This document shows positions 7,567-52,293 of a DNA stretch of 64,000 bases, piece after piece (position 1 is the stretch's first letter; every line of letters starts with the position of its first letter). Source of the stretch: Candidatus Eiseniibacteriota bacterium (lineage in GTDB: Bacteria; ARS69); contig JBQTGV010000011.1 in assembly GCA_052390515.1 (NCBI GenBank), forward strand, positions 9,576 through 73,575, written 5' to 3'. Position numbers and translations under genes: made by a program. The notes beneath the pieces are model-generated. The model saw nothing but the letters and a program-made list of their open reading frames with translations, ran no database searches and was not told the origin of the DNA.

Positions 7567-7649
7567 TTGTCAAATCGTGCAACGGCGGCCGGGGTGGGCA
7601 AGGCGCCGGGGCGGTCCGCGGGCTATGGTCGCGGCGGCATGTTCCGGAG

Positions 7650-14738: not shown

Positions 14739-14803
14739 CCGCTCCGGATCCGCTCCGGCCGGCAGTATACCGCGGTGGTATAGTCCGCGGCGGAGGGGAA
14801 GTC

Positions 14804-24575: not shown

Positions 24576-24609
24576 AGACCTTCGAGGAGACCGCCGGCGA
24601 GGGGCGCGC

Positions 24610-26158: not shown

Positions 26159-26170
26159 GGCGAGGACGCG

Positions 26171-26701
26171 ATGAGCGCGAATCCCGTTCCGTGGCTCGAG
26201 AGGACGTTCGAGGTCGATCCGTCGGCCGACCGGGAGGGCCTGCTGCGGCGGCTCCGCGGCGCGCCGGATCGGCTGATGACGCTCGTCGCCGGGCTCTCCC
26301 GTGAGCAGCTCATCCACCGCCCCGGCGAGGCCTGGTCGATCCAGGAACACGCCGGGCACCTGCTCGACCTCGAGGACCTTCATCTCGGCAGGCTCCGCGA
26401 CCTCGCCCGAGGAGCGAAGGAGCTTCGCCCGGCGGATCTGTCGAACCGCCGCACCTACGAAGCGCACCACAACGACGACACGATCGGCTCGATCCTCGCC
26501 GACTTCCGCTTCACGCGCGAGGTTCTCGCCGAGCGGTTCGAGGAGGCGGATCCGGTGTTCCGTGCCGTCCACCCCCGGCTCGGCACGTCGATGGGCGCGG
26601 TGGATCTGCTGCGTTTCGTGGTCGAACACGACGACCATCACCTGCAGGTCGCCGAGCGGTTGGCGGAACGCTGGACCGCGGGAGACCCCGATGGCGACTG
26701 A
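26171..26701 (+). CDS. DinB-family protein (third paralog in the window)
   Basis: 'EHAGHLLDLEDLHLGRL', 'VVEHDDHHLQVAERL' are DinB-type His motifs. Confidence 0.8.
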   Translation: MSANPVPWLERTFEVDPSADREGLLRRLRGAPDRLMTLVAGLSREQLIHRPGEAWSIQEHAGHLLDLEDLHLGRLRDLARGAKELRPADLSNRRTYEAHHNDDTIGSILADFRFTREVLAERFEEADPVFRAVHPRLGTSMGAVDLLRFVVEHDDHHLQVAERLAERWTAGDPDGD

Positions 26702-33600: not shown

Positions 33601-33747
33601 GGAACGGCGCTCACGCTGCTCGTCATCCCCGCCGCGTACCTCGTGGTCCCGACGTCCGTCGCCGTGGAACACGAGGAGGATGCGCCGGAGCCGGGGCGAA
33701 TCCCGCGCGTCACCGGAGGCGAGCCTCTCCCGGAGCGTGCCACATGA
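30610..33747 (+). CDS. RND efflux permease (HAE1 family), first of two tandem paralogs (MdtB-like)
   Basis: 1045 aa with 12 TM helices and two large periplasmic loops. 'MISAVVAFAVRRRVTVLMV' is a typical AcrB-family N-terminus. An ATGA overlap with the adaptor gene. Confidence 0.95.
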   Translation: MISAVVAFAVRRRVTVLMVALAVIAFGGVGFSRLPLDLLPDISYPSITIQTEFPDTAPGEVETLVTRPVEEAVGVLRGLQEIHSVTRAERSEVTLQFDWGADMDDLSLEVREKLDRLEFPEEVQAPVVLRYDPALDPIIRLALTGPDDLRLLRRVAEKEVKEDLETREGVAAAVVKGGEEEEIQIEVDQGKLSAIGITPETLGEILATSNINRPGGSLESVENRYLVRTLNEFDSLDEIRELPVNPPGTPPVRLADVATVTWGVKEREEITRVDGRESVEIAVYKEGDANTVAVADAVAEALEWLGEELPKGMELTVLFDQSRFIRQSIDEVQSALWIGGGLAILVLYLFLRSIRPTLIIATSIPLSILFTFMLMYRLDVSLNIMSLGGLTLGIGMLVDASIVVLESIHRRRQEGLPLAKAAIEGTAEVGGAVAATVLTTVAVFFPIVFVEGIAGQLFRDQALTVTFSLLASMVVAVTIIPMFSSIGDANVGTEPSRRKSRPAKSEKATLGRLSQRYERVIRGALARPGLTLTIAGVLFLASLAVIPTLGTELIPVLTEGEFYFEAVLPEGTPLAATDRVIARMDEAARAEPAVEQTFATIGSRLVSGGLALKTRDENLGQLNLVVGDRSDETQELAIADRLREQFSRIPNLVTKLGRPSFFSLKTPVELVFYGENLEELRDYTLGLLPAVREVPGLVDVRASLESGNPELTVQFDRDRLAALGLSIADVSSGLHDRVNGTVVSRFREEDRDIDIRLRNREQDRDTVGDIENLVVAERDGVPVTLAAVADITPARGPAEIHRIQQSRAAIVTGEVAGRSVGAVNEDLEALVLANRPPASITWELAGQNREMERSFASLRFALLLAIFLVYLVMAATFENLVHPFIILFTIPLALVGVVLGLVVGGFTLSVIAMLGAILLAGVVVDNAIILVDAINRFRRDGVDKREAIVAACHVRLRPILMTTLTTILGLVPMAIGFGEGAELRQPLAVVVIFGLAVGTALTLLVIPAAYLVVPTSVAVEHEEDAPEPGRIPRVTGGEPLPERAT

Positions 33748-36700
33748 CGCTTCCCGAACTGGCCATCCGGCGCCCGATCACCGTCCTGATGCTGCTCGTC
33801 TCGCTCGTGGTGATCGGTTCGATCGCGCTGAACCGCCTGCCGCTCGCGTTCCTCCCGGAAGGCGAAGAGCCGCAGATCTGGGTCGTCGTCCCCTACCCGA
33901 ACGCTTCGCCGAAGACCATGGAGCGGTCCATCCTGCGGCCGATCGAGGACGCGCTCGGTTCCATCGGCGGGCTGCAGCACATGTGGTCCACCTGCGACGG
34001 GAACGAGGCGAGGGTCAGCCTCTTCTTCCGGTGGGACGAGGACATGGCCACCAAGCGGGTCGAAGTCCGCGAGCGTCTCGACCGCGTACGCCCAGACCTG
34101 CCCGAGGACGTCGACCAGATCCACATCTCCCGCAACTGGGACGTGGGCCGCACCGGGGAGACCATCCTGGAAGCGCGCATCGCTTCGGGACGGGACCTCA
34201 GCCACGGTTACGAGCTGCTGCACACGCGCATCGTGAAGCCGCTGGAGCGCATCCCCGGCGTCGCGTCGGTGAACCTGGACGGGGTCAACCCGCGCGAGGT
34301 CCGCGTGAATCTGAAGCTCGCCGAGCTGGCCCGCTACAACGTGGACGTCCGCGACGTCATGACCGCCCTGCGCGAGAACAACGAGGACCGCTCGATCGGC
34401 GAGCTGCGCGGGAGCGACCGCGTGCTGATGGTCCGTGTGGACGGTTCGTTCGGGAAGCTTTCGGACATCTCCGACCTCGTCGTCGGAGAGGGCGGGATCC
34501 GGCTCTGCGACGTCGCCGACGTCTCCTACGAGGAACCGCCACTGGAGTACGGGCGGCACCTGGACGGGCAGTTCGCGCTGGGGATCGACGTCGCCCGCGA
34601 GGCCGGCGCGAACACCGTGGAGATCTCCCAGGCGATCAAGGAACGCGTCGCGCAGATGGCCGAGGACCCGGAGCTGGAGGGCGTCAACTTCCTGATCTGG
34701 GAGGATCAGGGCGCGGAGATCCTCAAGACCATGCGCGACCTGCGCAACACCGGGATCATCGGCGCGCTGCTGGCTTCGGTCGTCCTGTACGTGTTCCTTC
34801 GCCGGTTCTCGTCGACGGTCTTCGCCGTGCTGTCCATTCCCTTCTCGCTCATCGTGGCGTGCGGCATCGTCTGGGCGAAGGGTGGCACGCTCAACACGCT
34901 GACGCTGCTGGGCCTGATCGTCGGCGTCGGCATGCTGGTGGACAACGCCATCGTGGTGATGGAGAACATCAATCGCCACCGGGAGAACGGTCTGCCGCCA
35001 CGCCAGGCCGCTCTGATCGGCGCGCGGGAGGTCTCGGTGGCGGTGGTGTGCGGGACGGCCACGTCGGTGATCGTCTTCCTGCCGATCATCTTCAACCGGC
35101 CGGATGAGATGAACCGCTACCTGCGGGAGCTCGGCCTCACCGTCACCTTCACCCTGATCGCCTCGTTGTTCGTGAGCCAGACGCTCATTCCGCTGGCCAT
35201 GAGCCGCTTCGTGCGGGTCAAGAACATGCCCCCCACGCGGTGGATGGTGGCGCTGCAGGACGGCTACAGCAACCTCCTCGCTCTGACCTTGCGGCATCGC
35301 TGGATCGCGCCGGTGGTCGGATTGGCGGTGATCGGTTCCGGCTGGTACCCGTACGGCAAGGTGGACAAGAACTTCGAGGCCAGCGAGGCCGAGATGTTCG
35401 TCAGCATGAACTACCGGATCGACCAGCCGATGTCGCTCGAGCGGAAGGAAGAGCTCGTCACTCGGGTCGAGAGCCTGCTGGAGCCGTATCGGAAGGAGCT
35501 GCACGTCGACTCGATCTACAGTTTCTGGAGCGAGAACTGGGCGATGACCCGCTGCTACATGGAGGACGGGCACACCAACGAGGAGGAGATGAACCGCGTC
35601 CGCCAGAAGCTGCGCGAGGTGGCGCCGGAGATCCCGGGCGTGCGCCTGGAGGTGCAGGACTCCGGCCGGTTCTGGGAACGCAACAGCGGAAAGAGGCTGG
35701 GTTTCCGCCTCTCCGGTCCGGACAGCGAGGTGCTCACGGAGCTGGCGCTGGACGCGCGCCGGCGCCTGGAGACGCTCGACGGGCTCTTCGACTTCTACAC
35801 CACGGCGGAGGGCGGTCGGTACGAGGTGCAGACGCGCATCGACCGGGACCTGGCGCGGGAGTACGGCGTGGGCGTGACGCAGGCCGCCGACGTCGTCGAC
35901 TACACGTTCCGGGGCCGGCGGCTGCCGCGGTACCGGGGGCACGAAGCGGTGGAGGAAGTGGAGATGAGCCTGACGCTCGACGAGCGCGAGGACGAGAGCA
36001 TCGAGCAGCTCAAGAACCTGCCGCTCGTGCAGGGCGGCGCGGAGGATCGCCGCGCGATCCCGCTGGCCACGGTGGCGGACTTCGCCGTGGTGCAGGGCCC
36101 CGAGGACATCCAGCGCGACAATCGCGTGACCGGCGTGTGGATCGGCGCGCGGTTCGAGGAGGACACCGAGGAGGAGCACATGGCTCGGTCGGAAGCCGTC
36201 CTCGACGACATCATCCTCCCGTACGGATACGAGTGGGACCATCACCAGTTCATTCGGCACGAGGAGGAAAGCCAGACGGAGTTCCTGATCACGCTGCTGC
36301 TCGCGCTCGGACTCATCTTCGCGGTGATGGCGGCGCTGTTCGAGTCGATGCGGCAAGCGCTGTCCCTGATGGTGTCGCTGCCCTTCGCCGTGGCCGGCGC
36401 GGCGTGGACGCTGTGGCTCACCGGGACGGACTTCGACCAGCCGGCGTCGGTGGGCCTGCTGCTTCTCCTCGGCATCGTGGTGAACAACGGCATCGTGATG
36501 ATCTCGCACATCAACCACTATCGCCGGGAAGGCATGCCGCGCGAGGCAGCCATGGTGCGCGGCGGCCGCGAGCGCCTGCGGCCCGTGATCATGACCGCCT
36601 TGACCACGCTGCTGGGACTCCTGCCCATGGTCGTGCAGCGGCCGAGCCTCGCCGGCGTCTACTACTACTCGATGGCGCTCGTCATCATGGGCGGTCTCAT

Positions 36701-36845
36701 CATCTCGACGATCCTCACGACGATCCTGCTGCCCACCACAGTCTGCCTGACCGAGGACGCACTCGGTGCGATCAGCCGGTTCAGCCGGTGGCTCGCGCGC
36801 TCGTTCCGAGGAGTCGTGCTGCGCGCGCCGGCGCGGGCGAGCTGA
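33744..36845 (+). CDS. RND efflux permease (HAE1 family), second tandem paralog (MdtC-like)
   Basis: 'MTLPELAIRRPITVLMLLVSLVVIGSIALNRLPLAFLP' and full AcrB-like topology. An ATGA overlap with the preceding RND gene. Confidence 0.95.
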   Translation: MTLPELAIRRPITVLMLLVSLVVIGSIALNRLPLAFLPEGEEPQIWVVVPYPNASPKTMERSILRPIEDALGSIGGLQHMWSTCDGNEARVSLFFRWDEDMATKRVEVRERLDRVRPDLPEDVDQIHISRNWDVGRTGETILEARIASGRDLSHGYELLHTRIVKPLERIPGVASVNLDGVNPREVRVNLKLAELARYNVDVRDVMTALRENNEDRSIGELRGSDRVLMVRVDGSFGKLSDISDLVVGEGGIRLCDVADVSYEEPPLEYGRHLDGQFALGIDVAREAGANTVEISQAIKERVAQMAEDPELEGVNFLIWEDQGAEILKTMRDLRNTGIIGALLASVVLYVFLRRFSSTVFAVLSIPFSLIVACGIVWAKGGTLNTLTLLGLIVGVGMLVDNAIVVMENINRHRENGLPPRQAALIGAREVSVAVVCGTATSVIVFLPIIFNRPDEMNRYLRELGLTVTFTLIASLFVSQTLIPLAMSRFVRVKNMPPTRWMVALQDGYSNLLALTLRHRWIAPVVGLAVIGSGWYPYGKVDKNFEASEAEMFVSMNYRIDQPMSLERKEELVTRVESLLEPYRKELHVDSIYSFWSENWAMTRCYMEDGHTNEEEMNRVRQKLREVAPEIPGVRLEVQDSGRFWERNSGKRLGFRLSGPDSEVLTELALDARRRLETLDGLFDFYTTAEGGRYEVQTRIDRDLAREYGVGVTQAADVVDYTFRGRRLPRYRGHEAVEEVEMSLTLDEREDESIEQLKNLPLVQGGAEDRRAIPLATVADFAVVQGPEDIQRDNRVTGVWIGARFEEDTEEEHMARSEAVLDDIILPYGYEWDHHQFIRHEEESQTEFLITLLLALGLIFAVMAALFESMRQALSLMVSLPFAVAGAAWTLWLTGTDFDQPASVGLLLLLGIVVNNGIVMISHINHYRREGMPREAAMVRGGRERLRPVIMTALTTLLGLLPMVVQRPSLAGVYYYSMALVIMGGLIISTILTTILLPTTVCLTEDALGAISRFSRWLARSFRGVVLRAPARAS

Positions 36846-43003: not shown

Positions 43004-44422
43004 TCAGGGGCCTCGAAACGTGACCTCGGCGCTTCGCCGTTCCCCGGAAGCGGAGTCGGCGACCGTGATCGTCAGCGGGAACGTGCCCGCGTAGCTGCCG
43101 CGGGGCAGCCGCGCGATCATTGAAGTCGTGACGTCGGCGAGGCTCTCCACCGCGAGCCGCGGCGTGGCCAGTACCAGCTCCGGGCGCGCGTCCCCCGTGC
43201 TCTCGGCTTCGACGAAGTAGACCGCGGAGCTTTCGCCCTTGTTCTGGATGCGGAAGTTGTAGACGTTGCGGATCTCGTCCTCTTCGAGCACGTAGGGCAT
43301 GCCGCGAACCCGGAGGACGTGCACCTCGAACGAGCTGCGCTTCGCCAGCGTGAACCCGAACGCGGCCAGCCCGGCGAGCGCGGCCGCGACATAGGCGATC
43401 GTCCGCGGCCGGATCAGCTTGCGTCGGCCCTCGGAATCGAAGCCGCCTTTCGAGTCGTAACGGATGAGTCCTTTGGGCAATCCCACCTTGTCCATGATCT
43501 CGTCGCAGGCGTCGACGCAGTTCGCGCAGCCGACGCACTCCATCTGCAGGCCGTTGCGGATGTCGATCCCGGTGGGGCACACCGCCACGCAGCGGAAGCA
43601 GTCGATGCAGTCGCCGCCCTCCTCGGCCCTGCGCGAGCGCGGTTCTCCGCGGCCGGAGTCGTACCCGATGATCATCGTGTCGGCGTCGACCAGCGCGGAC
43701 TGCGCGCGGCCGTAGGGGCAGACGATCAGGCAGACCTGCTCGCGGAACCACGCGTAGTCGAAGTACAGGATTGCAGTCCAGATGACGACCCAGAGGAACG
43801 TGGTCCAGTGCTCCGCCGGGCTGCCGCCGAGCCACGCCAGCAGTTCCTTCGGCGGAACGAAGTACGCGACGAAGATGTGCGCGTTGGCGAACGCGAGCGC
43901 CACGAAGACGGCGTGCTTGACCCCCTTCCGCCAGCTCTTGTCCCAGGTCCAGGGTCCCAGGTTGCGCTTGATCCTCGTGTCCCGCGGCCCCTCGATCCGT
44001 CGTTCGATCTTCCGGTACACGCCCTCCAGGAAGACGGTCTGAGGGCACGCGTAGCCGCACCAGATTCGCCCCCAGAGGCTGGTGACGACGAACAGCGCGA
44101 AGCCCAGGCCCGACACGAGGAAGAACAGCAGGTGGAAGTCGTTGTTCGTGAAGGTGTGGCCGGCGAGGTAGGCCGCACGTCCGGGAAGGTCGATGCTCAC
44201 GAGCGGGTGACCGCCGACCTGGATCCAGGGAACGACGGCGTAGATGACGAGCAGCGCGGCGAAGACCAGGTTCTTGCGGCGCTGGAACCGGCCGCGTACG
44301 TCCGCGGGATGGAGGAAGTTCCTGCTTCCGTCCGGGTTGATCGTGTAGACCGTGTCGAGGTCGGGCAGACGCCGCTCGAGCTTGCGGGGCCTGGAGTGCC
44401 GTGGCGGCGACGTCGTACTCAT
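43004..44422 (-). CDS. ccoG: cbb3 oxidase accessory ferredoxin CcoG/FixG
   Basis: 'CGYACPQ', 'CLIVCPYGR', 'CIDCFRCVAVCPTGIDIRNG...CVGCANCVDAC' are multiple 4Fe-4S Cys motifs. Five TM helices. Start at an internal Met overlapping the ccoP stop (ATGA). The upstream 172-aa extension lies in ccoP's alternate frame and is rejected. Confidence 0.85.
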   Translation of the reverse strand: MSTTSPPRHSRPRKLERRLPDLDTVYTINPDGSRNFLHPADVRGRFQRRKNLVFAALLVIYAVVPWIQVGGHPLVSIDLPGRAAYLAGHTFTNNDFHLLFFLVSGLGFALFVVTSLWGRIWCGYACPQTVFLEGVYRKIERRIEGPRDTRIKRNLGPWTWDKSWRKGVKHAVFVALAFANAHIFVAYFVPPKELLAWLGGSPAEHWTTFLWVVIWTAILYFDYAWFREQVCLIVCPYGRAQSALVDADTMIIGYDSGRGEPRSRRAEEGGDCIDCFRCVAVCPTGIDIRNGLQMECVGCANCVDACDEIMDKVGLPKGLIRYDSKGGFDSEGRRKLIRPRTIAYVAAALAGLAAFGFTLAKRSSFEVHVLRVRGMPYVLEEDEIRNVYNFRIQNKGESSAVYFVEAESTGDARPELVLATPRLAVESLADVTTSMIARLPRGSYAGTFPLTITVADSASGERRSAEVTFRGP

Positions 44423-45012
44423 CCGGTTCCTTGCTGCGTCCATCCCGGCGCTGCGTTCCCCGCGGCGTCCATTCCCTGCGGTGCTTTCCCGGAGAGGTTC
44501 TTGTCGCGGAGCGTCAGCAGGTACGCGACGACGTCCTGGATGCGCTGCGGCCCGAGCTGGTTCATCCACGCCACCATTCCCTTGTCGGGCACGCCGTTCG
44601 TCACGGTTCGATGGATCTGCAGCGGTGAGCCGCCGTGGATCCAGTACTCGTCCGTCAGATTCGGACCGATGTCGCCGGAGGCGTCGGGCCGGTGGCAGGT
44701 CGCGCAGATCTGGCCGAACACGGCGCCACCTGCGGCGACCCTCTCCGGCACCTGCGACACGAGCAGCAGCGTCTCGTCGGAAAGCTCCTGCCCGGACATC
44801 CTGGCGAGCTGGAGCTCGGCGGCGGCTGCCATCTCCGCGGCGTACGCGTCCCGGGGGAGGTGGCCCAGGCGCCAGGTGTGGAAGAACAGCCAGTACCCGA
44901 CGGCGAAGACGATCGCGCCGTACAGCGTCCACAGCCACCAGTTGGGGAGACGGTTGTCGAACTCGTGGATCCCGTCGTACTCGTGCTCGCGGAGCTTGTC
45001 CTGATCCGCCAT
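44419..45012 (-). CDS. ccoP: cbb3 oxidase subunit III CcoP, monoheme variant
   Basis: 'EYDGIHEFDNRLPNWWLWT' is the CcoP/FixP N-terminal signature plus TM. There is a single 'CATCH' heme motif (typical CcoP is diheme). Confidence 0.8.
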   Translation of the reverse strand: MADQDKLREHEYDGIHEFDNRLPNWWLWTLYGAIVFAVGYWLFFHTWRLGHLPRDAYAAEMAAAAELQLARMSGQELSDETLLLVSQVPERVAAGGAVFGQICATCHRPDASGDIGPNLTDEYWIHGGSPLQIHRTVTNGVPDKGMVAWMNQLGPQRIQDVVAYLLTLRDKNLSGKAPQGMDAAGNAAPGWTQQGTG

Positions 45013-45013
45013 G

Positions 45014-45196
45014 TCAGACCTCCTCCCGCCCGTCCGCTTCGAGAGGCAGACGCGCCACGTGGTCCATACGCTCGTGCCGGCGGAGACCTCGGATCTCGCG
45101 GACCAGCACCACGGTGAACGCGACGAGGAAGATCGCGAGCGCGACGAGCGGCCACGCCAGCAGATCGCTCTTCGCGAACCAGCTCTCGAACATCAT
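45014..45196 (-). CDS. ccoQ: cbb3 oxidase small subunit CcoQ/FixQ-like (60 aa)
   Basis: 'MMFESWFAKSDLLAWPLVALAIFLVAFTVVLV' is a single-TM peptide in CcoQ position. The ATGA overlap with the ccoNO stop. Confidence 0.6.
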   Translation of the reverse strand: MMFESWFAKSDLLAWPLVALAIFLVAFTVVLVREIRGLRRHERMDHVARLPLEADGREEV

Positions 45197-47742
45197 CGAC
45201 CCTCCGGGAGCTGGATCGCGGCTGCGGACGCGAGCGGTTCGCCGGCGTCCGGCGGGGCGGCCTGCGCGGAGGCCGCGGACGGTGCCGCAGCCGGTACCGG
45301 CTCGGCGCCCGTCGGCTGGGGTCCCCGCCCGAGGCGCTGCAGGTACGCGATCAGAGCCACGAGCCGGCTGCGCTCGGAGACCGTGACCGCGTTGGCCTCC
45401 AAGTCCCGGCGGATCAGCGCCGCCTGCGAGAGCGCGGTTCGTTCCGCCGCCATGATCTCCTCGGCCGAATAGGGGACGCCGAGCCGCCGCATCGCGTCGA
45501 GCTTGCCGGCCGTCTTCGAGTAGTCCACCTCGGTGTCGTCGAGCCACGAGTACGCCGGCATCAGCGATCCAGGAGACGTGGAGCGCGGATCCAGCAGGTG
45601 CTGGTAGTGCCACAGGTTCGGCAGCTTCCCGCCAACCCGATGCAGGTCCGGACCGGTGCGTTTCGATCCCCACTGGAACGGATGATCGTAGACGTACTCC
45701 TCGGCGCGGGAGAAGTCGCCGTAGCGCAGCGTTTCGTGGCGGAACGGCCGGATCATCTGGCTGTGGCAGACGTAGCAGCCCTCGCTCACGTAGACGTCGC
45801 GGCCCTCGAGCTCCAGCGGGCTGTACGGCAGCTGCACGCGCTTGGGATCCGGGGTCGACTCGAATCCGGCCGGGCCGCGCATTCCTTCGGTGGATCCGCC
45901 TCGCGTGACCGCGTCGCGGAGCATCGAGCCGCCGGACTCGCTCGCCTCGGGCGCGGTCGCGGGGGCGGCCTCGACGGCGGGAGTGAGCGGGATCCGCTGC
46001 TTCAGCACCACGGAGGGGATCAGCTCCGCCACGCCGCCCGCCAGGACGGCGAAGAGCACCAGTACGGTGAAGGCCAGCGGCCTGCCCTCCAAGAGCGCGT
46101 GCCACGTTCGCCCTTCACGACGCCAGATCCCGCCGCTCACGATCGCCGCGACGACCACCATGGTCGCGAGCGTCAGGACGACCGGGCTCATCACCGGCGA
46201 GGAGATGCCCAGGATCACCGCCACCGCGACGACCAGCGCCGACAGGACGGCGGGTCCGCCCGCGAGGACTCTCCAACCGGAGACCGCCGGCCGGGCGGCG
46301 CGCGCCTTCACCGGCACGGTGACCCGTCCGTCGACGGGATGACCCTGACGCACCGTGGCGAAGATGTTGACGGCGAAGAGCACGAACCCGACGAGGTACG
46401 CCGACCCGCCCACCAGTCGCATCATGTACATGGCCCGCTGCGCGAGCAGACCCTCGACGAAGTCCGGGTATTTGAGGAAACCGTCCGCGTCGAGCGCGCG
46501 CCAGTAGAGTCCCTGGCCGATTCCCGAGACCCACATCGACGTGATGTATAGCAGGATGCCGAACGTCCCGATCCAGAAGTGCGCGTCCGCCAAGCGCAAC
46601 GACCACAGCTTCGTGCCCCAGAGTCGCGGGACGAGCCAGTACAGCATTCCGGCGGCCATGAAGCCGTTCCAGCCCAGGGCACCGCCGTGCACGTGCCCGA
46701 TGATCCAGTCCGTGTAGTGGGCCAGTGCGCTCACGCCCTTGATCGAGAGCAGAGGTCCCTCGAAGGTCGACATGCCGTAGAACGTCACCGCCATGATGAA
46801 GAACTTGATCACCGGATCGGTGCGCAGCTTGTCCCACGCGCCACGAAGCGTGAGCAGGCCGTTGAGCATGCCGCCCCAGGACGGCGCCCAGAGCATCAGG
46901 CTGAAGACCATGCCGAGCGTCTGCGCCCAGTCCGGCAGCGCGGTGTAGAGCAGGTGATGAGGTCCGGCCCAGATGTACACGAACACCAGGCCCCAGAAGT
47001 GCACCACGGAGAGCCGGTACGAGTACACGGGGCGGTCGGCGGCCTTGGGCAGGAAGTAGTACATGATGCCCAGGATCGGCGTGGTCAGGAAGAACCCGAC
47101 CGCGTTGTGTCCGTACCACCACTGCACGATCGCGTCCTGCACGCCGGCGAACAGGGGATAGCTGTGGGTCAGCGACGTCGGCAGGTGCAGGCTGTTCACG
47201 ATGTGCAGCACCGCGATCGTCACGATCGTGGCGATGTAGAACCACAGCGCTACGTAGAGGTTCTTCTCGTTGCGGACTGCCAGCGTCCAGAAGAAGTTCA
47301 CGCCGAACGCGACCCACACCACGGCCACGGCGATGTCGATCGGCCAGATGAGCTCCGCGTACTCCTTCCCCTGCGTGAGGCCGAGCGGCAGGGTGAGCGC
47401 GGCAGAGACGATGATGGCCTGCCAGCCCCAGAAGTTGAAGCGGCTCAGGAAGTCCGAGGCCATGCGGGTCTTCGCCAGCCGCTGCGTCGAGTAGTAGATC
47501 CCGGCGAACATCATGTTGCCGACGAAGGCGAAGATCGCCGCGTTGGTGTGCAGCGGGCGAAGGCGGCTGAAGGTCAGCCACGGCGTGCCCAGGTTCGCCT
47601 GCCACCACACGAGCTGGGAGGCGATGACGGCGCCCAGCAGCAGCGCGACGAGCGCCCAGATGACCGTGGCGAGCGAGAACGCTCGTACGATCCAGTCGTC
47701 GTAGGTGATCTGCCGCGTGGGAGCGGTGCGGCTATCGGTCAT
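45193..47742 (-). CDS. ccoNO: Fused cbb3-type cytochrome c oxidase subunits I+II (CcoN-CcoO fusion)
   Basis: The N-terminal ~470 aa is heme-copper oxidase subunit I ('WWYGHNAVGFF', 'HHLLYT', 'HYTDWIIGHVHGGALGW'). The C-terminal ~220 aa is CcoO ('CYVCHSQMIRPFRHETLRYGDFSRAEEYVYDHPFQWGSKRTGPDL') after a TM and a Pro/Ala-rich linker. Confidence 0.9.
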   Translation of the reverse strand: MTDSRTAPTRQITYDDWIVRAFSLATVIWALVALLLGAVIASQLVWWQANLGTPWLTFSRLRPLHTNAAIFAFVGNMMFAGIYYSTQRLAKTRMASDFLSRFNFWGWQAIIVSAALTLPLGLTQGKEYAELIWPIDIAVAVVWVAFGVNFFWTLAVRNEKNLYVALWFYIATIVTIAVLHIVNSLHLPTSLTHSYPLFAGVQDAIVQWWYGHNAVGFFLTTPILGIMYYFLPKAADRPVYSYRLSVVHFWGLVFVYIWAGPHHLLYTALPDWAQTLGMVFSLMLWAPSWGGMLNGLLTLRGAWDKLRTDPVIKFFIMAVTFYGMSTFEGPLLSIKGVSALAHYTDWIIGHVHGGALGWNGFMAAGMLYWLVPRLWGTKLWSLRLADAHFWIGTFGILLYITSMWVSGIGQGLYWRALDADGFLKYPDFVEGLLAQRAMYMMRLVGGSAYLVGFVLFAVNIFATVRQGHPVDGRVTVPVKARAARPAVSGWRVLAGGPAVLSALVVAVAVILGISSPVMSPVVLTLATMVVVAAIVSGGIWRREGRTWHALLEGRPLAFTVLVLFAVLAGGVAELIPSVVLKQRIPLTPAVEAAPATAPEASESGGSMLRDAVTRGGSTEGMRGPAGFESTPDPKRVQLPYSPLELEGRDVYVSEGCYVCHSQMIRPFRHETLRYGDFSRAEEYVYDHPFQWGSKRTGPDLHRVGGKLPNLWHYQHLLDPRSTSPGSLMPAYSWLDDTEVDYSKTAGKLDAMRRLGVPYSAEEIMAAERTALSQAALIRRDLEANAVTVSERSRLVALIAYLQRLGRGPQPTGAEPVPAAAPSAASAQAAPPDAGEPLASAAAIQLPEGR

Positions 47743-47908
47743 CGGTCGTGCCTCCTTGCGGCAGCGGGGATTCGTCGGCCTCGAGCGGCAGGAGAGACAG
47801 GCGGTCGCCGTGCTCGAAGTCCCCGCCGTGGATGCGGGAGAAGAGCAGGATCAGCGCCGCGCCCACGAGCCCCAGGCTGATGAAGACGAGCACCACGATC
47901 ACTTCCAT
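47732..47908 (-). CDS. ccoS: cbb3 oxidase maturation protein CcoS/FixS (58 aa)
   Basis: 'MEVIVVLVFISLGLVGAALILLFSRIHGGDFEHGD' is a typical CcoS single-TM peptide. It overlaps the ccoI stop (10 nt) and the ccoNO start (11 nt). Confidence 0.7.
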   Translation of the reverse strand: MEVIVVLVFISLGLVGAALILLFSRIHGGDFEHGDRLSLLPLEADESPLPQGGTTDDR

Positions 47909-50358
47909 GAGAGACGCCTCTCGGAGAGCCGCCAGGCGGTGACGGAGACGATTGCGGCGGAGGAGAGCGGCATCAGCACGGCAGCGTGCACGGGCGTGAC
48001 CAGCCCGGCGAAACACAGCGCGAGCGCGGCGACGTTGTAGGCGACGGCCACGACCAGGTTGTCGCGAACGACGGACCTGAGCACCCGCGGCAGCTCGATC
48101 GCGGCGCGGACGGCTCCGAGCCCGCCGCCGAGGAAGTAGAAGTCGGCGCGCGCGGGCAGCGAGGCGTGGTCCACGGCCGGCGTGCCCGAAGTCCAGGCTG
48201 CGGACAGGCTCGGCGCGTCGTTCAGCCCGTCGCCGATCATCAGCGTGTCGCGGCGGTCGAGCGAAGCCACGAGCGCGGCCTTGTCTTCGGGGGAGAGCCG
48301 TGCCCTGGCGCGGTCCGCGGGGATTCCCAGCTCGCGCGCGGCTGCTTCGACGCGATCGGGTGCGTCGCCGCTCAACAGGTGCACTTCGAGGCCGCGGCCC
48401 GCGAGCGCGGCGAGCTCCTCGGCGGCATCGTCGCGCAGGTCTTCGCCCCAGGGAATCGCCGCGAGCAGCCGGCCGTCGGCGGAGAGGACCGCCTCGGACC
48501 GCCAGCCGAGCGGCGAACCGTTCGCCGCACTGCCGCTGCCGAGGGCGAAGTCCCGCCGGCCGAGGCGCCACATCCGTTCGCCGTCGGACCACTCGAGGCC
48601 GAGCCCGGCCACCTCGCGGACCGCGGCGCCGCGGAGCACGTCGGGAGCGTCGTCCTCGGCCAAGGCGGCAGCCAGGGCCACGCTCACCGGATGGTTGCTG
48701 CGGACGGCGAGATTGTAGAGCGCACCGCGGGCTTCGCCCGTCAGCGAACCGATGACGCGACGGCCTTCGCTGGTGACGCGCAAGCCGCTGCGGGTCAGCG
48801 TCCCGGTCTTGTCGAACAGCACCTTGCGGATGCCGAGGGCGCGATCGGTGAACGTGGCGCTGCGCACGAACACGCCGCGACGGCGCAGCGCCGCGTGGAT
48901 CATCTCGTGCGCCAGCGGCGTCGCTAGGCCGAGCGCGCAGGGGCACGTCACTACCAGGATGGAGACGGTGACCTGGAACGCGCGTTCCACGCCGGCCGGC
49001 GACCAGGAGAGGAACCCGACCACCGCCAGCGCCAGAACCGCGGCGACGTACCCGGTGCTCACCCGGTGCCACCACGCGCCCGATCGCCGCGCGTCGTCCG
49101 CTTCGGGCATCGCGGCCAGCAGATCCACGAGCCGCGACTCGCCGAAGCCCTGCAGCGCGAGGAGGCGGATCGCCGCATCGCCGGCGTTGAACGAACCCGC
49201 GCGCACCGTGCCGCCGGCCTCGACCGACCCGACCCGGGATTCGCCGTCGATCCAGTCGAGGGAGACGAGCGCCGGTCCCTCGAGGAGACGACCGTCGAGC
49301 GGCACGAGGTCGCCGGGGACGACCCACACCTCGTCGCCTTTGCGGAGCTCGGATGCCGGAACGGACCCGAGGCGGCCGTCGCGCAGCCGCCTCGCGGAGA
49401 GGCCGTCCACACCTTCGGCGGCGAGCAGCGCGCGGCGGTTGCGCTCCAGCACTCGCTCCTGCAGCCAGCGACCGAGCAGCATCAGAGTCACGAACGCGGC
49501 GAGCGAGTCGAAGTACGCGGCCTGCGGGCCGCGCGCGAAGTGCTCCCACACCGAGCCGCCCCACGCCAGCAGGATGCCGAGCGAAATGGGCAGGTCGAGG
49601 TGGACGAGCCGGCGGCGCACGCCGAGCCACGCGCCGCGGAAGAAGACCGGTCCTGCTGCGGCCACCGCCACGGTCCCCAGCGCGAGGTTCAGCCACCCGA
49701 AGTACGGATAGACGACGCCGTCTTGCGGCGAGAGCCCGAAGTAGTAGCTCAGGCTGAACATCATCACGTTCATCGCTGCGGCGGTGGAGATGCCGAGGCG
49801 GAGGAGCAGACCGCGGCTCCTCGTCGTCGCCTGCTTGCGCGCCGGCCCGAATCGGTAGCCGAAGCGAAGGGCCTCGGCCAGGAACACGCGCAGATCGCCG
49901 CCCGCCGGCGACCACGACACGTCCGCCGTGCCGGCCGCCGGGTTGACCCGAAGGTGTACCGCGCCCGGCGTGCGCGCGAACAGCTCCTGCAGCAGCCAGA
50001 CGCACGCCGCGCAGTGCACACCCTGGACGTCGAGCGCGAGGCGCCGGACTCCGGGCGCTTCGCCCTCCGTGAGGCGGTCGAGCCATGCGAATGAATCCGC
50101 TCGGTCGCGGGCCGGCGGGGCGATCGCCCCACGACGCAAGTCATAGAAACGAGCGAGCCCGGACTCCCCAATGAGGTCGTGAACGCTCCGGCAGCCGGAG
50201 CAGCAGAAAGGGTCCGCGCGGCGCCGGCGCTCCCGGGGGACAGGGAGGCCGCAGTGCCGGCATTCGGAGGGGGTGGCCGCCGCGCCCGGGAGGACGGCCA
50301 GCGCCGGGAGAGGGGCGATATCGGCCGTGCGAGCCACCGGAGCGGGAATCGAGCCCAT
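47899..50358 (-). CDS. ccoI: Copper-translocating P1B-type ATPase CcoI/FixI
   Basis: N-terminal CxxC metal-binding motifs. 'TCPCALGLATP' is the CPC motif, 'DKTGTLT' the phosphorylation site, 'MIGDGLNDAP' the hinge. Eight TM helices. Confidence 0.9.
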   Translation of the reverse strand: MGSIPAPVARTADIAPLPALAVLPGAAATPSECRHCGLPVPRERRRRADPFCCSGCRSVHDLIGESGLARFYDLRRGAIAPPARDRADSFAWLDRLTEGEAPGVRRLALDVQGVHCAACVWLLQELFARTPGAVHLRVNPAAGTADVSWSPAGGDLRVFLAEALRFGYRFGPARKQATTRSRGLLLRLGISTAAAMNVMMFSLSYYFGLSPQDGVVYPYFGWLNLALGTVAVAAAGPVFFRGAWLGVRRRLVHLDLPISLGILLAWGGSVWEHFARGPQAAYFDSLAAFVTLMLLGRWLQERVLERNRRALLAAEGVDGLSARRLRDGRLGSVPASELRKGDEVWVVPGDLVPLDGRLLEGPALVSLDWIDGESRVGSVEAGGTVRAGSFNAGDAAIRLLALQGFGESRLVDLLAAMPEADDARRSGAWWHRVSTGYVAAVLALAVVGFLSWSPAGVERAFQVTVSILVVTCPCALGLATPLAHEMIHAALRRRGVFVRSATFTDRALGIRKVLFDKTGTLTRSGLRVTSEGRRVIGSLTGEARGALYNLAVRSNHPVSVALAAALAEDDAPDVLRGAAVREVAGLGLEWSDGERMWRLGRRDFALGSGSAANGSPLGWRSEAVLSADGRLLAAIPWGEDLRDDAAEELAALAGRGLEVHLLSGDAPDRVEAAARELGIPADRARARLSPEDKAALVASLDRRDTLMIGDGLNDAPSLSAAWTSGTPAVDHASLPARADFYFLGGGLGAVRAAIELPRVLRSVVRDNLVVAVAYNVAALALCFAGLVTPVHAAVLMPLSSAAIVSVTAWRLSERRLSWK

Positions 50359-50428
50359 TCAGGACCCCCGAAACAGGGTTCCGGCACGCTACCGGTATCG
50401 GATCAGTCGGTCAAGTTAGCCGCCGGAA

Positions 50429-51166
50429 TTACCACAGGGTCACCTTGAATAGCTCAAAGTGAGGCAGGATCGACAAGGCGGCGAGCCCTCTGAGAGCCAG
50501 CTGGACGGCGAGCCCCAGGACCAGGATTGACGCGAGGCGATTCAGCCGGCGCCGGCCGGCCGGGCTCAGAAGAGACCCGCCGAGGCCCAGGACGACCAGC
50601 GCCGGTACCGTTCCGAGGCCATAGAGCAGCAGGGCGGCGCCTCCGCGAAGCGGGTCGGGTGCGGCTGCAGCAGACAGCGTCACCACCGCCACGGGGCCGC
50701 ACGGCAGGAGCCCGTTGGCGAGCCCCAGAGCGAAGTGACTGCCGGGTCGGTTCGCCCCGAGGAGGGCCTGGATCCGCCGCAACACGGGCCGCGCGAGAGA
50801 GGACTGCTCGATCCAGGACCGTGTCGGCAGGATCCCGAGCAGACCCAGCCCGAGCAGCGTCATCAGGAGGCCGACCGAAAGGGAGACGGCGCCCTGAGCG
50901 GCCGCCACCGCGACCGTGGCGCCGGCGAGCGAGAGCACGGTTCCGAGCAGCGCGTAGCTCAGGATGCGGCCGGAGTGGTAGAGAGTCGTCGCCCGCGCCA
51001 GCGCCGCTGCGGTAGCGCCCCGGGACCGTTGCGCCGCTGCGAATCCCATGACGAGCGGCCCGCACATCCCCGCGCAGTGCCCGAGGCTCACCGCGAGTCC
51101 GGTGCCGAACAGCATGACGCCGTGCAACGGCTCCGCCGGATCGAGTCCGGCGCAGCAGGGCTCCAT
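50429..51166 (-). CDS. DsbD_2/TauE-like membrane protein with paired-Cys motifs, commonly linked to cbb3 assembly clusters
   Basis: 245 aa with six or more TM helices. 'GHCAGMCGPLV' and 'LLPCGPVAV' are conserved Cys motifs in TM1/TM4. Located directly upstream of ccoI on the same strand. Confidence 0.6.
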   Translation of the reverse strand: MEPCCAGLDPAEPLHGVMLFGTGLAVSLGHCAGMCGPLVMGFAAAQRSRGATAAALARATTLYHSGRILSYALLGTVLSLAGATVAVAAAQGAVSLSVGLLMTLLGLGLLGILPTRSWIEQSSLARPVLRRIQALLGANRPGSHFALGLANGLLPCGPVAVVTLSAAAAPDPLRGGAALLLYGLGTVPALVVLGLGGSLLSPAGRRRLNRLASILVLGLAVQLALRGLAALSILPHFELFKVTLW

Positions 51167-51279: not shown

Positions 51280-51825
51280 ATGTCCCGCTCGCGCTTCTTC
51301 GCCTCATCGTTGCTTCCCTGGATCGCCCTCGCCGTCCTCGCGGTCCGCCCGACCGCCGCCACGGAGCTTCCGACCGGCAGCTTCACGTTCGAGAAGCAGA
51401 TCGTCGTGCCGGGCGCGCCCGCGGTCATCTACGACGCGATGACCGGCGACGTCTCCGGCTGGTGGGACCATCACTTCTCGGAGCATCCCAAAGCGCTGTA
51501 CATCGAGGCGAAGCCGGGGGGCGGCTTCTACGAGATCTTCGACGACTCCGGGGACGGGGCGAAGCACGCCGAAGTCATCTTCGCGAAGCGCGGCGAGATC
51601 CTCAAGATGCGCGGGCCGCTGGGCTTCTCCGGCAACGCGATCGACCTCGTGCACACGTTCCGCTTCGCGGCGGAGGACGACTCGACGCGCGTGACCCTCA
51701 CGCTCAACGCCGTCGGCCAGCTCGAGGAGGGCTGGCAGCAGGCCGCCGAGCAGGTCTGGGATCACTTCCTCGTCGAGCAGTTCAAGACCTGGGTCGAGGC
51801 CGGCCGACACCTCGCCGAAGAGTGA
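51280..51825 (+). CDS. Secreted SRPBCC (START/polyketide-cyclase-like) protein
   Basis: Signal peptide 'MSRSRFFASSLLPWIALAVLAVRPTAA'. The 'GWWDHHFSEHPKALYIEAKPGGGFYEIFDD' pattern resembles AHSA1/SRPBCC. Confidence 0.65.
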   Translation: MSRSRFFASSLLPWIALAVLAVRPTAATELPTGSFTFEKQIVVPGAPAVIYDAMTGDVSGWWDHHFSEHPKALYIEAKPGGGFYEIFDDSGDGAKHAEVIFAKRGEILKMRGPLGFSGNAIDLVHTFRFAAEDDSTRVTLTLNAVGQLEEGWQQAAEQVWDHFLVEQFKTWVEAGRHLAEE

Positions 51826-51837
51826 CGGCCGCGCCTT

Positions 51838-52293
51838 CTACGGCCAGCGCTTGGCCAGCTGCTCGATCGCCGCGTCCAGCGCGGCCGCGGACTCCAGGCT
51901 GGAACCCTGCTTCGTCTTCATGGCCGCGCGCATCACCTGATGGTGATCCGCCAGCGCGGCCAGGTAGTCGGCGTGCCCCTCGGCTCCCGCGGCGACGTCC
52001 TTCAGCTTCTGCGTCAGGAAGTACACGGACACGACCTCGATGATGTGCGAAGCGTGCTCTTCCTTCGTCATGATCCAGCGCGTGGCCTGATTCACCGACT
52101 CGGCGTCACGCTTGCCGGCCAGATCGTTGATGTTGGTGATGGCCTTGGAGATGGTCGCTGCGTCCTCGCGGAGCTGGACGAGGCGCGCGGCGTCGTCGTA
52201 GATGCCGCAGGGGACCTGGCAGTGGGCATGTACGCCGGCGGCGGCGAGCACCGGTAGCGCGAACGCGACGAGCCAGGCTGTGGCCTTCTTCAT
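51838..52293 (-). CDS. sodN: Nickel-containing superoxide dismutase (Ni-SOD) with a Sec-type signal peptide
   Basis: 'HCQVPCGIYDD' matches the Ni-hook (His1-Cys2-x-x-Pro-Cys6-Gly-x-Tyr9). It is preceded by 'MKKATAWLVAFALPVLAAAGVHA', with a GGAGG Shine-Dalgarno sequence upstream. The four-helix-bundle remainder is about 125 aa. The long upstream ORF extension is rejected. Confidence 0.8.
   Translation of the reverse strand: MKKATAWLVAFALPVLAAAGVHAHCQVPCGIYDDAARLVQLREDAATISKAITNINDLAGKRDAESVNQATRWIMTKEEHASHIIEVVSVYFLTQKLKDVAAGAEGHADYLAALADHHQVMRAAMKTKQGSSLESAAALDAAIEQLAKRWP

What the first reader, a model, noticed from the sequence alone, without database searches (positions are those of the whole stretch)
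43004..51166. Complete cbb3 oxidase locus with ccoN-ccoO fusion, inverted module order, monoheme CcoP and no ccoH
All on the minus strand, in order: a DsbD_2-like paired-Cys membrane protein, ccoI, ccoS, ccoNO (fused), ccoQ, ccoP, ccoG. Most junctions overlap by 4-11 nt.

Three features differ from the Rhodobacter/Bradyrhizobium paradigm (ccoNOQP followed by ccoGHIS):
- The maturation genes ccoI and ccoS come first.
- Subunits I and II form a single 849-aa polypeptide joined by a Pro/Ala-rich linker.
- CcoP has one CxxCH instead of two.
The assembly factor ccoH is absent from the locus.
Basis: partly seen in the sequence, partly recalled or inferred. Interest (0 to 1): 0.5.

Follow-up and report, generated by a model that had tools for sequence, protein, structure and literature searches.

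The report
Ordinary fused-type cbb3 oxidase operon
This is an intact operon for a high-affinity (cbb3-type) respiratory oxygen reductase of the widespread kind in which subunits I and II are one protein.

Summary
On the minus strand, 43004-51166 encodes DsbD_2, CcoI, CcoS, fused CcoNO (849 aa), CcoQ, monoheme CcoP and CcoG. Most junctions overlap by 4-11 nt. All heme and CuB ligands are intact.

The fusion is real. One reading frame keeps GC3 at 0.86-0.98 throughout. An independent metagenome contig carries the same locus with a 90%-identical CcoNO. More than 8000 database proteins share the architecture, and NCBI has a curated model for it (NF011053, passed).

The "deviations" are the rule for this class:
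- Of 80 related loci from about 8 phyla, about 76 of 79 have a one-heme CcoP.
- Most Bacteroidota loci also place ccoI-ccoS upstream.
- A DsbD_2 gene is a regular member.

One correction: CcoN and CcoO are joined by two extra transmembrane helices (residues ~490-542). The Pro/Ala-rich stretch lies inside CcoO, after its membrane anchor.

No FixH/CcoH is detectable anywhere in the window. All 26 loci with the two-helix insertion form one clade and lack FixH. Verrucomicrobial members keep a probable TM-only remnant.

Verdict: new member of a known kind, low interest. The window comes from a Ca. Eiseniibacteriota MAG.

The parts
50429..51166 (-). DsbD_2 / CcdA-like membrane protein (245 aa). It has Cys motifs GHCAGMCGP and LLPCGP. 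It is a regular member of fused-type cbb3 loci; its function in the pathway is inferred, not shown.
   Evidence: PF13386 DsbD_2 138.4 bits. A homologue sits next to ccoG/FixH or ccoI in 57 of 80 related loci. The same kind of gene is reported as 'tauE' in green sulfur bacterial cbb3 operons (PMC10158934).
47899..50358 (-). ccoI: CopA2-type Cu-translocating P1B ATPase (819 aa) that supplies Cu for the CuB site.
   Evidence: Pfam ATPase-cat_bd, HMA, E1-E2_ATPase and Hydrolase. TIGR01525 scores 308.9 bits and TIGR01511 286.7 bits, both below NCBI's subfamily cut-offs. CPC, DKTGT and GDGLNDAP motifs are visible in the translation. It is adjacent to ccoNO in 64 related loci.
47732..47908 (-). ccoS: a 58-aa one-helix maturation protein. 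It overlaps ccoI by 10 nt and ccoNO by 11 nt.
   Evidence: FixS PF03597 scores 20.3 bits, E 4.6e-4, just below the gathering score of 23.1. tblastn matches lie in the same slot in L001-L009 and L018. A 56-aa gene is called in the same position in L081.
46333..47742 (-). [quoted passage not shown]
   Evidence: TIGR00780 scores 645.5 bits against a cut-off of 583. It is about 57% identical to P. stutzeri CcoN (3MK7_A). Residues H65, H212, Y256, H262, H263, E328, H350 and H352 align to H60, H207, Y251, H257, H258, E323, H345 and H347. Foldseek TM-score (normalised to the target length) is 0.89.
46105..46332 (-). Junction insert (residues about 471-546): two extra TM helices, TM13 and TM14. They link the cytoplasmic C-terminus of CcoN to the cytoplasmic N-terminus of CcoO.
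   Evidence: Hydropathy peaks. AF2 helices 496-513 and 519-542 with pLDDT 82-93. The insert is present in 26 of 81 loci, which form one clade. It shows no profile similarity to the FixH TM.
45325..46104 (-). CcoO module (residues about 547-806). It comprises the WHxLxEG motif, the anchor helix 555-578, a lineage-specific disordered Pro/Ala-rich tether (about 580-636, nt 45835-46005), and a heme c domain with C656xxC659H660 and M728.
   Evidence: TIGR00781 scores 217.5 bits against a cut-off of 200.65; PF02433 scores 269 bits. It aligns to 3MK7_B. Invariant columns are C656, C659, H660 and M728. pLDDT is below 50 for residues 588-629.
45193..45324 (-). Low-complexity C-terminal tail of CcoNO (residues 807-849) plus the stop codon.
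   Evidence: pLDDT is below 50 for residues 811-849. The tail is not conserved in homologues.
45014..45196 (-). ccoQ: a 60-aa one-helix subunit with a C-terminal LPLEAD motif.
   Evidence: The window copy itself has no Pfam hit. A positional orthologue is present between ccoNO and ccoP in every related locus. Of 22 aligned orthologues, 10 match Pfam FixQ, best E 2e-10.
44419..45012 (-). ccoP: monoheme variant (197 aa). It has an N-terminal FixP_N helix plus one cytochrome c domain (C103ATCH, with Met in GMVAW).
   Evidence: FixP_N 69.5 bits and one Cytochrome_CBB3 domain. TIGR00782 scores 112.7 bits, below the cut-off of 179.95, and matches only profile positions 13-195 of 285. It aligns to the N-terminal helix and first heme domain of solved diheme CcoPs.
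43004..44422 (-). ccoG: membrane-bound 2x[4Fe-4S] protein (472 aa), known elsewhere as a cupric reductase. This is the last gene of the operon.
   Evidence: TIGR02745 scores 422.8 bits against a cut-off of 316.7; Fer4_18, Fer4_5 and FixG_C domains. The start at 44422 gives an ATGA overlap with ccoP and the same 472-aa length as the gene called in L081.

Best explanation
The region is a single, translationally coupled operon. It encodes a functional C-family (cbb3-type) heme-copper cytochrome c oxidase of the fused-CcoNO class, together with its dedicated maturation factors. The host is a Candidatus Eiseniibacteriota bacterium.

Inferred mechanism, by homology to solved Pseudomonas and Rhodobacter enzymes:
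- A c-type electron donor reduces the single heme of CcoP. That heme is equivalent to the first, CcoO-proximal heme cp1 of diheme CcoP.
- Electrons then pass to the CcoO-module heme c, then to heme b, then to the heme b3-CuB site of the CcoN module. There O2 is reduced and protons are pumped.
- CcoQ is a small stabilising helix.
- CcoI exports Cu(I) for CuB, CcoG provides Cu(II) reduction, and CcoS is needed for heme b/b3-CuB maturation.
- The DsbD_2 protein probably moves reducing equivalents to the periplasm for the thiols of the heme-c or Cu handling machinery. This last step is the least certain.

Shown here: gene identities, ligand conservation, authenticity of the fusion, and class-wide conservation of the layout.

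Inferred: activity, electron path, and the roles of the accessory proteins.

Within the class, this locus belongs to a monophyletic sub-lineage. Its CcoNO carries two extra TM helices between the N and O modules, and its loci lack a full-length FixH/CcoH.
For: - Family assignments with scores above curated cut-offs for CcoNO (NF011053), ccoN, ccoO and ccoG.
- All six His ligands, the cross-linked Tyr, the C-family Glu, and the CcoO CxxCH/Met are conserved against 3MK7.
- The AF2 model has pTM 0.76 and matches solved CcoN chains at TM-score 0.86-0.89, normalised to the target length.
- One coding frame with GC3 of 0.86-0.98 runs over the whole fusion gene.
- An identical gene set and gene lengths occur in an independent contig, L081, whose CcoNO is 90% identical.
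- The exact CcoNO protein is in NCBI from a Ca. Eiseniibacteriota MAG.
- More than 8000 homologues carry COX1 + FixO.
- The same gene set occurs in 80 loci from Eisenbacteria, Planctomycetota, Myxococcota, Verrucomicrobiota, Bacteroidota, Bdellovibrionota, SAR324 and Acidobacteriota.
- CcoP has one heme in about 76 of 79 loci.
- CcoQ orthologues are present in all loci.
- Overlapping start and stop codons indicate co-translation.
- The canonical electron path cp2 -> cp1 -> co -> b -> b3 is taken from PMC7876108.
Against: - There are no expression or biochemical data for this organism.
- CcoS and CcoQ in the window do not reach Pfam thresholds on their own.
- CcoI is below NCBI's subfamily cut-offs.
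- CcoH is essential for assembly in Rhodobacter and Campylobacter (PMC8267372), yet it is undetectable in the window.
- No FNR/FixK-type box or convincing promoter was found upstream.
Confidence: 0.9

Rival explanations
1. The two extra TM helices (TM13/14) built into CcoNO take over the membrane-embedded stabilising and assembly role of the CcoH transmembrane helix. This would explain why CcoH was reduced to a TM-only mini-protein and then lost in this clade.
For: - All 26 loci with the insertion lack FixH, while 46 of 55 loci without it have FixH.
- Inside the clade, Verrucomicrobiota and one Planctomycetota locus keep a 40-60-aa one-helix ORF in the FixH slot. It aligns to the FixH N-terminal helix (hhalign probability 87%, E 3.9e-6).
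- Eisenbacteria and Myxococcota loci have none.
- In Rhodobacter, CcoH binds through its TM helix next to CcoN TMH9 (PMC7876108).
Against: - The insertion clade is monophyletic, so the correlation rests on essentially one evolutionary event.
- Bdellovibrionota loci L024, L025 and L038 lack both FixH and the insertion.
- TM13/14 show no profile similarity to the FixH helix or to the mini-protein.
- A CcoQ control reaches 33% probability against FixH, so helix-helix matches are noisy.
- CcoH could be encoded elsewhere in the genome, which could not be searched.
- The position of TM13/14 relative to CcoN TMH9 could not be read from the model output.
Confidence: 0.12
2. The N-O fusion, or the single heme in CcoP, is an assembly or sequencing artefact. 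The cause would be a frameshift that removed the ccoN stop codon, or a truncated ccoP.
For: None found.
Against: - The coding frame is continuous, with GC3 of 0.86-0.98 in every 50-codon block across the junction.
- An independent JGI contig has an 838-aa fusion and a 197-aa CcoP.
- Thousands of homologues have the same architecture.
- The junction is a conserved two-helix segment, not read-through sequence.
Confidence: 0.01
3. The locus encodes a different heme-copper enzyme, such as a nitric oxide reductase or another C-family-like oxidase with a different substrate, rather than an O2-reducing cbb3 oxidase.
For: Heme-copper oxidases and NORs share the fold. cNOR 3O0R is a distant structural hit (E 1.3e-7).
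Against: - The protein is 57% identical to bona fide CcoN.
- It has all three CuB histidines, the helix-7 Tyr and the C-family Glu.
- It passes the equivalog models for ccoN and ccoO.
- The accompanying Cu-delivery genes ccoI, ccoG and ccoS are specific to CuB enzymes.
Confidence: 0.02
4. The operon is a decaying or non-functional remnant, because the essential assembly factor CcoH is missing.
For: CcoH deletion abolishes cbb3 assembly or activity in R. capsulatus and C. jejuni (PMC8267372).
Against: - All seven genes are intact, with strong codon bias and conserved ligands.
- The same CcoH-less layout is conserved at 57-90% identity across Eisenbacteria, Planctomycetota and Myxococcota. That pattern indicates purifying selection.
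Confidence: 0.03

Closest known systems
Fused CcoNO-type cbb3 oxidase loci of Bacteroidota/Ignavibacteriota (NCBIfam NF011053 'bifunctional cbb3-type cytochrome c oxidase subunit I/II'; for example Melioribacter roseus MROS_1513-1515, PMC5492636)
   Same: - A single CcoN-CcoO polypeptide.
- A small CcoQ, a monoheme CcoP and CcoG downstream.
- ccoI-ccoS upstream.
- A DsbD_2 gene in the cluster.
   Different: - Bacteroidota CcoNO has a junction of about 70 aa holding only the CcoO anchor helix. The window protein has about 171 aa with two extra helices plus a disordered tether.
- Bacteroidota loci carry a full-length FixH between ccoG and DsbD_2. The window has none.
- In the window, DsbD_2 sits at the 5' end instead of the 3' end.
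Proteobacterial ccoNOQP + ccoGHIS (fixNOQP/fixGHIS) of Rhodobacter, Bradyrhizobium and Pseudomonas; structures 3MK7, 6XKW, 8SMR, 9G6B
   Same: - The same catalytic chemistry and ligands.
- About 57% identity in CcoN.
- The same accessory proteins CcoG, CcoI and CcoS, and a CcoQ-like helix.
   Different: - The subunits are separate in Proteobacteria.
- CcoP is diheme there; the window keeps only the first heme domain.
- Maturation genes follow the structural genes there.
- CcoH is present and essential there.
Green sulfur bacterial (Prosthecochloris) cbb3 operon (PMC10158934)
   Same: - CcoP with a single Cytochrome_CBB3 domain.
- An extra conserved TauE/DsbD_2-like membrane gene in the operon.
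   Different: - That operon retains ccoH and also has a second remote CcoH homologue.
- Its CcoP is shorter (138 aa).
Sister loci in the same sub-clade: Ca. Eiseniibacteriota chromosome OZ245046.1 (L001), Planctomycetota MAG.55 (L002), JGI contig Ga0394879_0006898 (L081)
   Same: - An identical order: DsbD_2-ccoI-ccoS-ccoNO-ccoQ-ccoP-ccoG.
- The two-helix insertion.
- No FixH.
   Different: - L002 has a 42-aa one-helix ORF right after ccoG (a probable TM-only CcoH remnant) that the window lacks.
- The Pro/Ala-rich tether is longest in the window lineage.

Membership tests
C-family heme-copper oxidase, subunit CcoN | Six conserved His (heme b x2, heme b3 x1, CuB x3), the helix-7 cross-linked Tyr, and the conserved Glu near the active site. 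| tested here: met
   H65, H352, H350, H212, H262, H263, Y256 and E328 align to P. stutzeri H60, H347, H345, H207, H257, H258, Y251 and E323. All are invariant in 59 homologues. TIGR00780 scores 645.5 against a cut-off of 583.15.
cbb3 subunit CcoO | An N-terminal anchor helix plus a monoheme c domain with CxxCH and a distal Met. | tested here: met
   Anchor helix at 555-578. C656xxC659H660 and M728 are invariant. TIGR00781 scores 217.5 against a cut-off of 200.65.
Fused CcoNO (NCBIfam NF011053 / PRK14485) | A single polypeptide covering both modules that scores above the curated cut-off. | tested here: met
   1145.5 bits against a cut-off of 1080. The frame is continuous. Independent confirmation comes from L081.
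Canonical diheme CcoP (TIGR00782 equivalog) | The FixP_N helix plus two cytochrome c domains (two CxxCH), with a score above the cut-off. | tested here: not met
   There is one CxxCH only. The score is 112.7 bits against a cut-off of 179.95, covering profile positions 13-195 of 285. It is therefore filed as the monoheme CcoP variant that is typical of fused loci.
CcoQ / FixQ (PF05545) | A single-helix protein of about 50-70 aa encoded between ccoO and ccoP that matches the FixQ profile. | tested here: inconclusive
   The window ORF has no Pfam hit. However, it aligns with positional orthologues from all loci (46% identity to L001), and 10 of 22 of those match FixQ.
CcoS / FixS (PF03597) | A small one-helix protein next to ccoI that matches the FixS profile. 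| tested here: inconclusive
   20.3 bits against a gathering score of 23.1. Position and tblastn matches in related loci support the assignment.
CcoI (CopA2-type P1B ATPase) | An N-terminal ATPase-cat_bd metal-binding domain, a CPC motif, DKTGT phosphorylation, and genomic linkage to cco genes. | tested here: met
   Pfam domain set. Motifs visible in the translation. Linkage in 64 loci. Caveat: it is below NCBI's cut-offs for TIGR01511 and TIGR01525.
CcoG / FixG (TIGR02745) | A membrane protein with two 4Fe-4S motifs and a C-terminal Ig-like FixG_C domain. | tested here: met
   422.8 bits against a cut-off of 316.7; Fer4_18, Fer4_5 and FixG_C domains.
ccoGHIS maturation cluster (proteobacterial paradigm) | Presence of CcoH/FixH (PF05751): one helix plus a periplasmic Ig-like domain. 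| tested here: not met
   No hit at E<=10 in any six-frame ORF of the window with two FixH profiles. One of those profiles detects proteobacterial CcoH chains 9g6b_C and 6xkw_h. Pfam on about 30 further ORFs was negative. No mini-CcoH ORF was found either. The rest of the genome could not be tested.

The most novel reading that the evidence does not exclude
In one monophyletic branch of fused cbb3 oxidases (Eisenbacteria, Planctomycetota, Myxococcota, Verrucomicrobiota), the catalytic CcoNO protein gained two transmembrane helices. In the same branch, the otherwise essential assembly factor CcoH was reduced to a helix-only mini-protein and then lost altogether, as in this window. If the built-in helices replace the membrane anchor function of CcoH, this clade would be a natural experiment showing which part of CcoH is needed for cbb3 assembly.
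Probability: 0.12. Interest if true: 0.45.

Novelty: new member of a known kind. Interest (0 to 1): 0.17.

Why it matters
As annotated, the locus adds little. It shows that this Ca. Eiseniibacteriota organism can respire at low oxygen with a standard fused-type cbb3 oxidase.

Its modest value is comparative. It is a clean example of the non-proteobacterial layout: fused subunits I and II, a one-heme CcoP, and copper-delivery genes placed first. That layout is much more common in nature than the textbook Rhodobacter arrangement.

The sub-lineage with two extra helices and no CcoH raises a narrow but testable question: how are cbb3 oxidases assembled without CcoH?

Tried and rejected
- **FNR/FixK box.** A search for TTGAT-N4-ATCAA with up to 2 mismatches gave 5 hits against 2.9 expected, and none lay upstream of the operon.
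- **Promoter and terminator scan.** The only promoter-like site lies just downstream of ccoG, and there was no significant terminator.
- **Other conserved neighbour genes.** The window ORFs between 36 and 57 kb were run with phmmer against all loci. Only the seven cco-related genes recur. The Ni-SOD, the 181-aa ORF and the MFS/spermidine-synthase gene recur only in the 90% relative.
- **Homology of TM13/14 to the CcoH helix or to the mini-protein.** None was found (hhalign probability 0.4% and 0.7%).
- **A small one-helix ORF in the window locus.** None was found downstream of ccoG or anywhere in 42.6-51.5 kb.
- **Lookup of the window's own contig.** P0001 was not on record, so the part of the 129.8-kb contig outside the window could not be read.
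- **Ducluzeau et al. 2008** (a survey of cbb3 gene clusters). The library does not hold it. I found no paper describing the two-helix insertion.
- **AF2 model coordinates.** They are not exposed, so the packing site of TM13/14 could not be compared with the CcoH site.


Full report
**What is there**

The window has about 70% GC. Its CcoNO protein is 100% identical to an NCBI protein from a Candidatus Eiseniibacteriota MAG on a 129.8-kb contig.

On the minus strand between 43004 and 51166 lie seven genes:

| Gene | Coordinates | Size and evidence |
|---|---|---|
| DsbD_2 | 50429-51166 | PF13386, 138 bits |
| ccoI | 47899-50358 | 819 aa; ATPase-cat_bd, HMA, E1-E2 and HAD domains; CPC and DKTGT motifs |
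| ccoS | 47732-47908 | 58 aa; FixS 20.3 bits, just under threshold |
| ccoNO | 45193-47742 | 849 aa |
| ccoQ-like | 45014-45196 | 60 aa, one helix |
| ccoP | 44419-45012 | 197 aa |
| ccoG | 43004-44422 | 472 aa; TIGR02745 423 bits |

- 10-nt, 11-nt, 4-nt and 4-nt overlaps.
- A 1-nt spacer between ccoQ and ccoP.
- 70 nt between DsbD_2 and ccoI.

The gene downstream of ccoG is an unrelated fused MFS/spermidine-synthase/TPR protein. A promoter-like site sits just after the ccoG stop, so the operon ends at ccoG.

**Is the fusion real and is the enzyme intact?**

- CcoNO passes NCBI's curated model for the bifunctional subunit I/II (NF011053, 1145.5 bits against a cut-off of 1080). It also passes the ccoN and ccoO equivalogs.
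- Against P. stutzeri CcoN (3MK7) it is about 57% identical. It keeps every ligand: H65/H352 (heme b), H350 (heme b3), H212/H262/H263 (CuB), the cross-linked Y256 and E328.
- The CcoO module keeps C656xxC659H660 and M728.
- GC3 stays at 0.86-0.98 in one frame in every 50-codon block, including the junction.
- An independent JGI metagenome contig (L081, CcoNO 90% identical) has the same genes with the same lengths: 838-aa fusion, 60-aa ORF, 197-aa CcoP, 472-aa CcoG.

The frameshift and 'missing second CxxCH' refutations therefore both fail.

**Corrected anatomy of the fusion**

The Pro/Ala-rich segment is not the N-O joint.
- After TM12 of CcoN (about 440-466) come two further hydrophobic helices. 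AF2 places them at 496-513 and 519-542 with pLDDT 82-93.
- Next comes the conserved CcoO N-terminal motif W547-H548-x3-E552-G, then the CcoO anchor helix (555-578).
- Only after that does the disordered Pro/Ala-rich tether appear (about 580-636, pLDDT below 50), followed by the heme domain.

Two extra helices preserve topology. The CcoN C-terminus and the CcoO N-terminus are both cytoplasmic. This is established from the solved structures and is inferred here.

**How unusual are the three 'deviations'?**

They are not unusual. A search returned more than 8000 COX1+FixO proteins. I fetched 80 loci from Eisenbacteria, Planctomycetota, Myxococcota, Verrucomicrobiota, Bacteroidota, Bdellovibrionota, SAR324 and Acidobacteriota. 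Mapping the window's proteins onto them gave three layouts:
- ccoI-(ccoS)-ccoNO-ccoQ-ccoP-ccoG-FixH-DsbD_2 is the usual Bacteroidota layout.
- The window's exact order recurs in L001, L002 and L081.
- Verrucomicrobiota place DsbD_2-ccoI after ccoG.

The CcoP reading frame has exactly one CxxCH in about 76 of 79 loci. A CcoQ-like one-helix ORF with a C-terminal LPL(D/E) motif lies between ccoNO and ccoP in every locus, and 10 of 22 aligned copies match Pfam FixQ.

The literature already describes:
- fused CcoNO in Melioribacter and Bacteroidetes (PMC5492636);
- a one-domain CcoP plus a TauE/DsbD_2-like gene in green sulfur bacterial cbb3 operons (PMC10158934).

The window's CcoP corresponds to the N-terminal helix plus the first heme domain of diheme CcoP. 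The canonical path is cp2 -> cp1 -> co -> b -> b3 (PMC7876108). The electron donor would therefore feed the cp1-equivalent heme directly. This is an inference.

**The ccoH question**

In Bacteroidota, the ORF between ccoG and DsbD_2 is FixH (Pfam E 1e-13 to 1e-29).
- A 47-sequence FixH profile built from the loci finds FixH in 46 loci. It finds nothing in the window, even at E<=10.
- A second 10-sequence profile detects the solved proteobacterial CcoH chains 9g6b_C (E 6.8e-11) and 6xkw_h (E 3e-6). It too finds nothing in the window.
- Pfam scans of about 30 other window ORFs were also negative.

CcoH is therefore absent from these 64 kb. The rest of the genome could not be searched.

**A sub-lineage pattern**

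The junction between TM12 and the CcoO heme domain falls into two groups:
- It is 124-171 aa, with the two extra helices, in 26 loci. None of these has FixH.
- It is 65-90 aa, with only the anchor helix, in 55 loci. Of these, 46 have FixH. Of the 9 without, 6 are truncated contigs and 3 are Bdellovibrionota loci that truly lack it nearby.

A neighbour-joining tree shows that the 26 form one clade. The anticorrelation is therefore essentially a single event and is not statistical evidence of compensation.

Inside the clade, ten Verrucomicrobiota loci and Planctomycetota L002 carry a conserved 40-60-aa one-helix ORF in the FixH slot.
- It aligns to the N-terminal helix of FixH (hhalign probability 87%, E 3.9e-6).
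- Controls were CcoQ against FixH at 33%, and TM13/14 against FixH or the mini-protein below 1%.
- This looks like a helix-only remnant of CcoH.
- Eisenbacteria (window, L001, L081) and the Myxococcota loci have neither form.

In Rhodobacter, CcoH binds through its helix next to CcoN TMH9 (PMC7876108) and is essential (PMC8267372). One can therefore speculate that TM13/14 substitute for it. I rate this at about 0.12. The support is one clade, Bdellovibrionota lack both features, and I could not read helix packing from the model.

**Verdict**

The locus is an ordinary, intact member of the very common fused-CcoNO class of cbb3 oxidase operons, here in an uncultured phylum. Novelty: new member of a known kind. 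Interest is low (0.17). The small residual interest lies in the CcoH-less, two-extra-helix sub-clade.

Noticed in passing
window 51841-52275 (-): A nickel superoxide dismutase (Sod_Ni, 104.8 bits). Its Ni-hook HCQVPCGIYDD is preceded by what looks like a Sec signal peptide (MKKATAWLVAFALPVLAAAGVHA|H), not by the short SodX-cleaved propeptide known from Streptomyces. This suggests a periplasmic Ni-SOD matured by signal peptidase. A Sod_Ni gene also lies near the cbb3 locus in the 90% relative L081.
   Followed up: partly
L012 14386-14610, L014 7595-7843, L017 4701-5054, L020 7503-7658, L022 5722-5967, L026 9547-9822, L029 15048-15209, L008 14472-15026, L015 12488-12721, L019 7068-7766, L002 about 14631-14756 (all + strand; the coordinates are stop-to-stop frames that contain the small gene at their 3' end): A conserved 40-60-aa one-helix ORF sits directly after ccoG, before DsbD_2, in Verrucomicrobiota and in one Planctomycetota locus. 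Its consensus is (P)W-helix-IA(V)(K/R)N.PQ.VPL. It occupies the FixH slot and aligns to the FixH N-terminal helix (hhalign 87%). It is probably a helix-only CcoH remnant. I found no description of it in the searched literature.
   Followed up: yes
L024, L025, L038 (Bdellovibrionota loci): These fused-CcoNO loci have the short junction without extra helices, and yet have no FixH between ccoG and DsbD_2. CcoH absence is therefore not confined to the two-helix clade.
   Followed up: partly
window 39973 to about 42960 (-): A large fused MFS-like/spermidine-synthase/TPR protein lies immediately downstream of ccoG. The typical N-terminal motif (FFLSGATGLVYQVVW) lies upstream of the GTG at 42867, so the true start is earlier than the listed ORF. 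The same gene follows ccoG in L081 but not in other related loci.
   Followed up: partly
window 7317-8423 (+): This is the only other c-type cytochrome candidate in the window. It has two CxxCH motifs, a weak CytoC_RC match and a C-terminal TPR. It is far from the cbb3 operon, and its relation to it is unknown.
   Followed up: no
window 51280-51825 (+): A 181-aa ORF with a signal-peptide-like N-terminus and no Pfam match lies between the DsbD_2 gene and the Ni-SOD gene. It is not conserved in related loci.
   Followed up: no
PDB entry 9g6b: A solved 'cbb3-2 NOH complex' (released 2026-01-28) contains CcoN, CcoO and a FixH-family protein. It gives a direct structural reference for where CcoH binds. 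No paper on it was found in the held library.
   Followed up: partly
window 14223-14852 (-), 24490-25077 (+), 26159-26698 (+): Three separate DinB/DinB_2-family genes occur within 12 kb. Two large adjacent AcrB-type RND transporter genes lie at 29782-36842.
   Followed up: no
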